The notes beneath the pieces were generated by a model. That model ran no database searches and was not told the origin of the DNA. It saw only the letters and a program-made list of their open reading frames with translations. Positions 12,817 through 57,452 of a DNA stretch of 64,000 nucleotides are shown here, piece by piece. The position numbers were made by a program, and so were the translations under genes. The number at the start of each line of letters is the position of its first letter. Within the stretch, counting starts at the first letter, position 1. Source of the DNA: Octopus vulgaris (lineage: Eukaryota); assembly GCA_951406725.2 (NCBI GenBank), contig OX597825.1, positions 70,494,001-70,558,000 of the forward strand, given 5' to 3'.

Positions 12817-12949
12817 CTGTGAAAATAGACAAGGGAAAGAATCATTCCAACAGTGAATGTTTGGAAAGCATTTCAATAGCATAATCCTAGCATATATCTA
12901 TCTATAAATATATATATATCAAAATAAGCAACAAGGATATCCAGAGGTA

Positions 12950-13038
12950 ATGCAGTACGATCGTTTCATGCAACTCCATTTAATTGAACAATGCAATCCT
13001 TACATCAATTGAAAATGCAGAGCGATCCTCAGCTGCAC
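12950..13038 (-). ncRNA. Type I hammerhead ribozyme motif (C3-G8, long stem II) in the left arm of a fold-back element
   Basis: Minus strand: GTGCAG-CTGAGGA-[long stem II]-GAAA-CGATCG-TA-CTGCAT. Palindromic stem III ACGATCGT, GUA cleavage triplet. Confidence 0.75.
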
Positions 13039-13278
13039 AAAGACATAGAATTTAATTAAATTAGAACAGATGGACACATTAGTATAATTATACCTAAAAT
13101 CTCCAAGAAGTTAAAGGAGATAGACAAAGAACATGCATCTCCACTCCAGCATAGAAGTTACTCTATGTTAAAGTAGAGACAGCATGTTCTTTGTCTATCT
13201 CCTTAACTTCTTGGAGATTTTAGGTATAATTATACTAATGTGTCCATCTGTTCTAATTTAATTAAATTCTATGTCATT

Positions 13279-13367
13279 GTGCAGCTGAAGATTGCTCTGC
13301 ATTTTAAATTGATGTAAGGATTGCATTGTTCAATTAAATGGTGTTGCATGAAACAATCATACTGCAT
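13279..13367 (+). ncRNA. Decayed hammerhead copy in the right arm of the same fold-back
   Basis: GTGCAG-CTGAAGA-...-GAAA-CAATCA-TA-CTGCAT. Stem III palindrome damaged by CpG-type transitions. Confidence 0.55.
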
Positions 13368-13477
13368 AACCTCTAGATATCCTTGTTGCTTATTTTGATT
13401 TTAATCACCTTACTTTGAAATTGTATGGATAATACCGTACTAAATTCTGGTGCCTCAGCTTAAGTACCATATTCATC

Positions 13478-21588: not shown

Positions 21589-21878
21589 CTTTTTGTAAAT
21601 AAATTCATCAAGCAACTGCAATTCCCGGATATCAGAGACCATGAGTTCTTCAGGATATTGCCACTGGGAGGTGCCTGCCACACTCCAGTTTGTGGGCGGC
21701 ATCTTCATGTCAGACTTGCTACGCATTCCACGTCGATGGGGTTTCTTCCGATTGGAGCTTGCTCTGCGTCCATCCATAAGAACTGGACCGCAGGGCACTT
21801 GGATGCCATAGCTGCTGGTTTGGAGAATTTCATCATGCCCGAAAGTAGGTAAATATTCCAGGTTTGTCGGGGCACCAA
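21589..21878 (-). CDS. MYO9: Myosin-IX tail exon (IGAPTNLEYLPTFGHDEIL...WQYPEELMVSDIRELQLLDEFIYKK)
   Basis: ccag| and |gtattt, 290 nt, phase 1 to 0, open frame. The W...EL..LDEF..KK motif fits MYO9. Confidence 0.9.
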
Positions 21879-21956
21879 CTGGAAAATAGACAATTCGAAA
21901 CCACTGATAACAACAACAGCAACAACAATGAAAAATATTTGTGAAAGAAAACAAAT

Positions 21957-22249
21957 TCATTTTTGGATTTGGTTTGCAAGATTCTTTATATGAGTTCGTG
22001 TGTTGAAGCATATTCTATTGTGTCTGGGGGAGTCATTTTCTTTTTGTGCCTTATTATTATGTAAAACACTCACCGGTAAAATTTCCATGTTTTTCTTATT
22101 TTTATTGTCCTAAAATTTTCGTTGCGTCTTGCAACCTTTTCAATAGTTTTAGGACAATAAAAATAAGAAAAACGTGGAAATTTTACTGGTGAGTGTGTTA
22201 CATAATAAGGCACAAAAAGAAAATGATTCTCCTCAGACACAATAGAATA
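21957..22249. mobile_element. Fold-back repeat, same family as 57213-57443
   Basis: Arms about 22012-22117 and 22147-22249 are inverted; hammerhead-like loop; homologous copy at 57.2-57.4 kb. Confidence 0.8.
22110..22146 (-). ncRNA. Minimal hammerhead motif with U3-A8 core variant
   Basis: Minus strand: CTA-TTGAAAA-G-GTTGC-aagac-GCAAC-GAAA-AT-TT-TAG, sitting in the loop of a fold-back element. Confidence 0.6.
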
Positions 22250-22564
22250 CAAATTCAATAAAGCTCATTAAGCAGCTTACAAAATTAAATAAAGTTAATT
22301 ATCATCATCATCATCCTCATTTAGGCACAGGTGGGGTTTTGTGGTTAAGAAGCTTGCTTCCCAACCACATGATCTCAGGTTCAGTCCCACCTGCTGGCAT
22401 CTTGGACAAGTGTCTTCTACTACAGCCCCAAGCTGATCAATGCCCTCTGAATGGATTTGGTAGGCATGAACTGAAAGAAGACTGTTGCACACACGTGCAT
22501 GCATGTGCATGTGTGACCTTGCCGTAATATCATGTGATGGATGAAAATGAGCTTCACCCTCAAA

Positions 22565-57204: not shown

Positions 57205-57212
57205 CATATATA

Positions 57213-57443
57213 TACTGTTGTGTCTGGGGAGAGTCATTTTCTTTTTGTGCCTTATAATGTAACACACTCACCGGTAAAATTTCCACTTTTTAGGGAAATA
57301 AAAATAAGAAAAAAGTGGAAATTTTACCGGTGAGTGTGTTACATTATAAGGCCCAAAAAGAGAATGACTCTCCCCAGATACAACAGAATATGCTTCAACA
57401 CACAAACTCATATAAAGAATCTTGCAAACCAAATCCAAAAACG
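57213..57443. mobile_element. Fold-back repeat, same family as 21957-22249, TA-flanked
   Basis: Inverted arms about 57213-57291 and 57309-57388, followed by the shared family tail gcaaaccaaatccaaaaa. Confidence 0.8.
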
Positions 57444-57452
57444 ATATATATA

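What the first reader, a model, noticed from the sequence alone, without database searches (positions are those of the whole stretch)
21957..22249. U3-A8 minimal hammerhead in the loop of a fold-back element, architecturally twin to the G3-C8 family
Seen: the unpaired centre reads on the minus strand CTA-UUGAAAA-G-GUUGC-aagac-GCAAC-GAAA-AU-UU-UAG. It shares with the G3-C8 family the extra G after A9, the GUYGC/GCRAC stem II and the UUU triplet, but has U-A at 3-8. It lies about 230 nt upstream of the 21878 acceptor in pre-mRNA sense. Inference: two related ribozyme lineages diverged by a compensatory core change.
Basis: partly seen in the sequence, partly recalled or inferred. Interest (0 to 1): 0.75.

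Follow-up and report, generated by a model that had tools for sequence, protein, structure and literature searches.

The report
Penelope retrotransposon end with variant hammerhead
This hairpin is one of thousands of short, folded-back copies of the end of an octopus jumping gene (a Penelope-like retrotransposon), and its centre matches a published variant of a self-cutting RNA motif that is predicted to be unable to fold in this copy.

Summary
The motif is there as described. It is no stand-alone fold-back element: it is a truncated, inverted-pair insertion (9-bp target duplication) of the terminal repeat of a Penelope-like element (PLE), in an intron of octopus myosin-IXAa. The genome holds 4,501 exact core matches, and 21 of 30 loci carrying the family's GIY-YIG endonuclease have the motif downstream. 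U3-A8 minimal hammerheads with an extra base after A9 are published for PLEs (Cervera and de la Pena 2014). The G3-C8 family is a related PLE but not the twin: a C3-G8 family is the sister (AU test rejects the twin clade, p=0.0003), so the two swaps likely arose separately. Three different Watson-Crick pairs at 3-8 in one clade support selection for the fold. Stem I stays 3 bp. In this copy the cut site is predicted to be locked in the hairpin. Family copy ends cluster just upstream of the ribozyme, not at the cut; the C3-G8 sister shows a small cluster at its cut. Cleavage is untested. Look-ups of earlier scan notes by sequence and words found nothing; the eight notes shown for this genome concern other families. 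New member of a known kind.

The parts
21957..22150 (-). Sense (long) arm: terminal repeat (pLTR) of PLE family A, from 4 nt before stem I to the end of the tail
   Evidence: Matches sequence found 626-1073 nt downstream of the endonuclease in 21 of 30 loci; 3' ends at two fixed sites
22147..22249 (+). Inverted (short) arm: second, more truncated copy of the same pLTR without the tail; joined to the sense arm over AAAA at 22150-22147
   Evidence: Arm alignment; 47 of 56 inverted pairs have one long and one short arm
22110..22146 (-). Minimal type I hammerhead motif: 3-bp stem I, core UUGAAAA (U3-A8), extra G, 5-bp stem II, GAAA, palindromic AAUU helix III, UUU triplet; predicted cut 22113/22112
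   Evidence: Sequence; descriptor against shuffles; fit to published alignment
21957..22036 (-). First ~27 codons of the PLE ORF (ATG 22036-22034; frameshifted in this copy); the arm ends fall inside it
   Evidence: Translation, and continuation into the ORF in L122 with 44% identity to the sister family's N-terminus
21951..21959 (+). Target-site duplication, copy 1 (ACAAATTCA), overlapping the element end
   Evidence: Sequence
22249..22257 (+). Target-site duplication, copy 2 (ACAAATTCA)
   Evidence: Sequence
21589..21878 (-). Host exon, unconventional myosin-IXAa; the element lies in the intron upstream (previous exon about 23915-23814)

Best explanation
The feature is a truncated insertion, with one inverted arm, of the terminal repeat of a Penelope-like retrotransposon, and its centre is that family's U3-A8 minimal hammerhead motif, which likely cut weakly in the parent element and is predicted to be inactive here. 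SHOWN: family membership, target duplication, link to a reverse transcriptase + GIY-YIG ORF, two fixed 3' ends inside the ORF start, and a pile-up of 5' ends just before the ribozyme. INFERRED: the element's RNA starts about 43 nt before the cut site (likely a capped start), so the hammerhead is in the 5' leader. The element's protein nicks both target strands and starts reverse transcription at two internal sites, about 28 and 84 nt into the ORF. The two cDNAs join at a short microhomology, which gives the unequal fold-back. The template was mostly uncut RNA. In the parent the ribozyme would work as a dimer or with help from the element's protein, and a cut would remove the capped leader. In the myosin pre-mRNA the inverted arm would pair with the cut-site strand, so this copy is likely a neutral relic.
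For: 4,501 exact 21-nt core matches, reversed control 0. 665-aa open frame with YVDD, Cx4CxxC linker and GIY-YIG-like endonuclease (Pfam matches weak); motif downstream in 21 of 30 endonuclease loci. 56 of 89 tail-anchored loci are inverted pairs, 47 of 56 long+short, the layout drawn for PLEs in PMC8557442. Two internal start sites, both-strand priming and uncut RNA as the dominant substrate were shown for an anole PLE (PMC11167929). 54 of 147 arms end within -6..+8 of the sense-arm start; 7.2 end near the cut against 8.5 expected. Base before the start hotspot is G in 53 of 91 (22% expected). Three related families carry U-A, C-G and G-C at 3-8 with different stems. Stem I pairing probability is 0.00 in the fold-back, penalty 6.8 kcal/mol, against 0.18 in a linear copy.
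Against: No cleavage was measured. Stem I is 3 bp and only 18% formed even in a linear copy. Copies show no selection: G8 in 4 of 100 U3 copies and 3 of 86 C3 copies. The high core conservation (98% against 86% just downstream) is confounded by A/T content and CpG decay. The extra G was not significant in the unbiased subset (5 of 14, p 0.09). The young sister family has no sharp G start; its 5' ends spread over -69..-45 (18 of 73), so the cap reading is not general. Arm ends come from BLAST and are fuzzy in A/T runs.
Confidence: 0.82

Rival explanations
1. The copy is an active ribozyme that cuts the myosin-IXAa pre-mRNA 234 nt before the acceptor, co-transcriptionally or in trans with other copies.
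For: Core intact and in the sense of the host transcript; the exon is real.
Against: The inverted arm is made first and pairs with the cut-site strand (unpaired probability 0.14 or less, stem I 0.00). Minimal PLE hammerheads showed no cleavage as monomers (PMC4209133). An intact core is the common state among thousands of copies.
Confidence: 0.05
2. The U3-A8 motif was already a dead vestige in the last active family A elements; the fold persists only by descent.
For: No pile-up of copy ends at the cut in family A, while the C3-G8 sister has one (8 of 73); weak stem I.
Against: U3-A8 needs two changes that restore the pair. Flanks vary between subfamilies while the core does not. U3-A8 cores are reported as active in vitro (PMC3088659) and recur in schistosome PLEs.
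Confidence: 0.2
3. It is a MITE or fold-back DNA transposon whose centre resembles a hammerhead by chance.
For: Long inverted arms, target duplication, high copy number.
Against: Arms are unequal, the junction differs between copies, 33 of 89 loci had no inverted pair called, and the arm sequence continues into a retrotransposon ORF.
Confidence: 0.01
4. The U3-A8 and G3-C8 families are sisters that split by one compensatory core change.
For: Both have the extra G, similar stem II and UUU; a 21-nt stretch is 81% alike; one clade with family B.
Against: Family B (C3-G8) is sister to A (100/99); A+C rejected, p-AU 0.0003; the tail is 83% alike over 47 nt for A-B. The tree uses ORFs, so swapping of terminal repeats is not excluded.
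Confidence: 0.08

Closest known systems
Minimal hammerheads of metazoan PLEs, including the U3-A8 variant of Schistosoma mansoni Cercyon (Cervera and de la Pena 2014, PMC4209133; main text parts 1-2 of 4 and supplement file 2 part 2 read)
   Same: UUGAAAA core (S. mansoni family 4), 3-bp helix I, extra base after A9, G10.1-C11.1, palindromic helix III; GAAA-A-U-U-U as in Crassostrea gigas; in pLTRs; mostly solo copies; pairs on opposite strands were noted.
   Different: The extra base is G here (their consensus has A, C or U); stem II is 5 bp; no octopus example in the searched supplement text (file 1 not searchable).
PAc, Poseidon element of Anolis carolinensis (Frangieh et al. 2024, PMC11167929; parts 1-2 of 4 read)
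   Same: Two internal start sites in the ORF start define the tail; both strands extended; hammerhead near the start codon; uncut RNA is the main template.
   Different: Here the ORF has a Cx4CxxC linker (Neptune/Nematis type), the ribozyme lies about 75 nt upstream of the ATG rather than overlapping it, and the tail is about 56 nt.
Neptune/Nematis-clade PLEs (Craig et al. 2021, PMC8557442; passages read)
   Same: C-terminal GIY-YIG with CCHH motif and CX2-5CxxC linker; partial tandems, inverted truncated copies, one-sided tail.
   Different: Placement in Neptune versus Nematis not tested; tail longer than the 30-40 bp described.
Natural U3-A8 hammerheads (Perreault et al. 2011, PMC3088659; section 8 read)
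   Same: Covariation at 3-8, reported as compatible with activity.
   Different: That section does not deal with dimer-type motifs in retrotransposon ends.
Small hammerhead variants of Penelope-like retrotransposons (Lunse, Weinberg and Breaker 2016/17, PMC5785218; title only, text not held)
   Same: By title: small variants tied to PLEs that cleave as dimers.
   Different: Could not check whether it lists octopus, G3-C8 or C9 variants.

Membership tests
Penelope-like element (EN+, C-terminal) | Single ORF with RT and C-terminal GIY-YIG endonuclease in the family | tested here: met
   665-aa frame in L121; Pfam RVT_1 E 0.008 and GIY-YIG E 0.013-0.014, below curated cut-offs; motifs YVDD, VIY..YIG seen directly; intact 1312-aa frame in sister family
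Penelope-like element (EN+, C-terminal) | pLTR downstream of the ORF that also forms the ORF start in tandems | tested here: met
   21 of 30 loci; pLTR end encodes the N-terminus
Penelope-like element (EN+, C-terminal) | 5' truncation, inverted copies, one-sided tail, target duplication | tested here: met
   56 of 89 inverted, 47 of 56 long+short; duplications
Neptune or Nematis clade | CX2-5CxxC linker and CCHH motif | tested here: met
   CTNDNCMVC and CIEGAC..H..H
Neptune or Nematis clade | Phylogenetic placement with named reference elements | not tested
   No named reference sequences were fetched; the tree used unnamed homologues
Minimal PLE hammerhead | Core N3-UGA-N-N8-A with Watson-Crick 3-8 pair, GAAA, UH | tested here: met
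   Sequence; U-A, C-G, G-C across three families
Minimal PLE hammerhead | Extra base after A9, G10.1-C11.1, palindromic helix III | tested here: met
   All present; extra base is G, outside the published A/C/U consensus
Minimal PLE hammerhead | Helix I of 2-6 bp able to form | tested here: inconclusive
   3 bp present and conserved; predicted 18% formed in a linear copy, 0% in this copy
Minimal PLE hammerhead | Site-specific self-cleavage as a dimer | not testable with these tools
   No assay; only contigs were available; copy ends show no enrichment at the cut in family A
Rfam hammerhead families | Covariance-model match | tested here: inconclusive
   No hammerhead among the 150 matches shown of 192 at E<=5; 42 lower ones not displayed
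MITE / fold-back DNA transposon | Equal terminal inverted repeats and fixed internal junction | tested here: not met

The most novel reading that the evidence does not exclude
One octopus PLE clade has tried three Watson-Crick pairs at hammerhead positions 3-8 (U-A, G-C, and C-G with an unusual C9), and the 5' ends of their genomic copies record how often each ribozyme had cut the template: no excess at the cut for U3-A8, a cluster at the cut for the young C3-G8/C9 family. The ribozyme lies between a capped start and the ATG and acts as a decapping switch whose strength was tuned by the core swaps. This would be in vivo evidence for cleavage by a minimal PLE hammerhead and a natural G3-C8 core, which I did not find in the papers I could read.
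Probability: 0.25. Interest if true: 0.6.

Novelty: new member of a known kind. Interest (0 to 1): 0.3.

Why it matters
The single copy matters little: it is one of thousands and likely inert. The family context has some value. What PLE hammerheads do is still open (PMC8557442, PMC11167929). This genome offers three related families with different 3-8 pairs, one young and with intact ORFs, and copy ends that can be counted against the predicted cut. That makes 'does cleavage matter for PLE transposition' testable with natural variants. The data also extend the two-site internal priming model from a Poseidon element to a linker-bearing clade and suggest how long+short inverted pairs form.

Tried and rejected
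Rfam scan: only microRNA-like hairpin matches below cut-off at the locus. Longer stem I (GUC/GAC beyond a bulge): predicted in one linear copy, but the 3' side varies (GAC, GAA, AAA), so rejected as a family feature. Spliced leader at the CAG before the hotspot: the one foreign upstream piece (L036) is ORF sequence; a splice origin for the hotspot is not otherwise excluded. Cut after the upstream GUC: 1 of 147 ends at that position. Hidden C3-G8 subfamily within family A: none. Inverted arm ending at the cut: 5 of 147 arms compatible, no excess; the window copy is compatible but ambiguous. Family C 5' ends (15 of 39 at one base) come from a score-ranked set and say nothing on its cut site. Expression: no RNA holder listed on record; runs are contigs, which cannot show starts or ends; no contig showed the empty site in the part displayed. 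The careful 42-row tree did not finish; the quick tree and a careful 14-row tree agree. One search timed out. Literature on natural G3-C8: searches found only engineered cases; on octopus: searches gave one relevant paper; on capped starts: one search gave nothing specific. Lunse et al. was not held. The non-circularly permuted wiring named in earlier notes was not tested; the standard type I order fits directly.

Full report
Observation. The motif reads as stated on the minus strand, 22146-22110, with the predicted cut at 22113/22112. The stretch folds into one long hairpin (z = -20). A strict descriptor, written after I had seen the motifs, finds 3 hits in the window and none in 100 shuffles. 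The element lies in an intron of unconventional myosin-IXAa: the exon at 21589-21878 is identical to the protein that NCBI names for Octopus vulgaris, and two contigs align over exactly that exon.

It is a repeat family, not a MITE. A DNA search gave 1,862 candidates, 40 scored. Among 30 fetched copies the centre is constant but the junction with the left arm differs. Exact patterns give 4,501 matches for the core with U3, 248 with another base at 3 and 4,249 for a downstream 25-mer; reversed controls give 0. In 89 loci picked by the downstream 25-mer (taken in order from the first 100 places listed, all on contig C1), 56 are inverted pairs, and 47 of those have one arm ending near +140 and the other near +196, counting from window base 22150 as +1. 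The window copy fits: sense arm 22150-21957, short inverted arm 22249-22147, overlap AAAA, and a 9-bp duplication at 21951-21959 and 22249-22257.

The parent is a Penelope-like element. One longer copy led to an endonuclease fragment. Of the 30 best loci for that fragment, 21 have the motif 626-1073 nt downstream. L121 holds a 665-residue frame with YVDD, a Cx4CxxC linker and a GIY-YIG domain with the CCHH pattern (Pfam matches are weak). By PMC8557442 (passages) this linker marks Neptune or Nematis; I did not test which. The last ~84 nt of the arm encode the start of the ORF, which continues in L122 with 44% identity to the sister family. The hammerhead therefore lies in the leader, about 75 nt before the ATG.

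The variant is known. Cervera and de la Pena (PMC4209133) describe minimal PLE hammerheads with an extra base after A9, short helix I and palindromic helix III, about 1,300 U3-A8 hits in Schistosoma, pairs on opposite strands, no cleavage as monomers and low cleavage as dimers. Their alignment has a UUGAAAA core with 3-bp helix I, a GAAA-A-U-U-U end in oyster, and GUUGC/GCAAC stems in Drosophila. Perreault et al. (PMC3088659) report natural U3-A8 pairs. Lunse et al. could not be read. One supplement file of PMC4209133 was not searchable and may hold further cases.

Relation to the G3-C8 family. That family (window 26164 and 35690) is also a PLE: 23 of 30 endonuclease loci have its core within 1.5 kb. 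The best named homologue of family A (62%) marks a third, young family B with intact 1312-residue frames. Its motif has C3-G8, the extra G, a 3-bp stem I, and C in place of A9 in 27 of 30 loci. Identities: A-B 61.5%, B-C 57.9%, A-C 53.6%. Trees give (C,(B,A)) with 100/100 and 100/99 (14 rows chosen from the 42, which agrees). A+C is rejected, p-AU 0.0003. With C3-G8 as the usual state, U3-A8 and G3-C8 likely arose separately; that order is inferred, since the outgroups' motifs were not available. Three different pairs at 3-8, on changed stems, are the best evidence here that the fold was under selection. Among copies there is no sign of selection: G8 occurs in 4 of 100 U3 copies and 3 of 86 C3 copies.

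Mechanism. For the anole element PAc, reverse transcription starts at two sites inside the ORF start, both target strands are extended, the ribozyme needs the protein, and uncut RNA is the main template (PMC11167929). The two fixed 3' ends here match that (inference). Priming on both strands at the two sites, with joining by microhomology, would give long+short inverted pairs (inference). Of 147 arms, 54 end within -6..+8, just before stem I (12.8 expected), while 7.2 end at +35..+44 around the cut (8.5 expected). So family A templates were mostly uncut. Copies that begin at -5 are preceded by G in 62 of the first 100 listed of 964, or 53 of 91 after collapsing one tandem array (hand count; 22% expected). 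In four simple copies the G belongs to the target duplication and gives a GA overlap, as a copied cap would allow. Against this: only 5 of 14 in the unbiased subset, and family B has no such sharp start. Family B does have 8 of 73 arm ends within +29..+38 of C3, around its predicted cut at +34; 7 of 13 in the range -25..+76 after merging one duplicate, p 9e-5, with the range chosen after seeing the data. This hints at cleavage in vivo in that family only.

This copy. In the host pre-mRNA the inverted arm comes first and pairs with the cut-site strand. Stem I probability is 0.00 and forcing the hammerhead costs 6.8 kcal/mol; in a linear copy stem I is 0.18. Cleavage of the myosin transcript is unlikely. 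No read data could test this.

Verdict. Observation confirmed; interpretation partly supported; a new member of a known kind. The copy is ordinary. The three-family comparison is the part worth following. Earlier scan notes: none by sequence or by words; 249 notes in this genome fit 'hammerhead Penelope', and the 8 shown concern other families.

Noticed in passing
L281:5635-5680 and L162-L191: Young sister PLE family B (2,979 exact 31-mer matches, intact 1312-aa ORFs, tandems of about 4.6 kb) has core CUGAUGC, C in place of the conserved A9, in 27 of 30 loci; a cluster of copy ends lies at its predicted cut.
   Followed up: partly
window 26164 (-) and 35690 (-): G3-C8 family C hammerheads with 7-bp stem I and AAUAUU helix III, ends of a third PLE; many copies begin at AGATGCAGCA, which follows a splice-acceptor-like TTTCTCAG, and are often preceded by G (14 of 19).
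   Followed up: partly
window 26489 (-) and 26600 (+): Inverted pair of canonical CUGAAGA minimal hammerhead candidates, probably another PLE family.
   Followed up: no
window 55849 (+): Canonical CUGAUGA hammerhead candidate with 6-bp stem I and a longer helix III region.
   Followed up: no
window 57210-57444: Second fold-back copy of family A whose junction leaves out the hammerhead core.
   Followed up: partly
window 12918-13399: 197-bp inverted repeat, 95% complementary, of another family; a similar fold-back lies in the flank of L053.
   Followed up: no
G000:C2:15437303-15437658 and L014: Family A pieces amplified into short tandem arrays (37-bp and 36-bp units).
   Followed up: no
L121, L123 3' UTR: The family A 3' UTR carries AT-rich and (CA)n/(TACA)n low-complexity tracts, one source of microsatellite-like sequence in this genome.
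   Followed up: no
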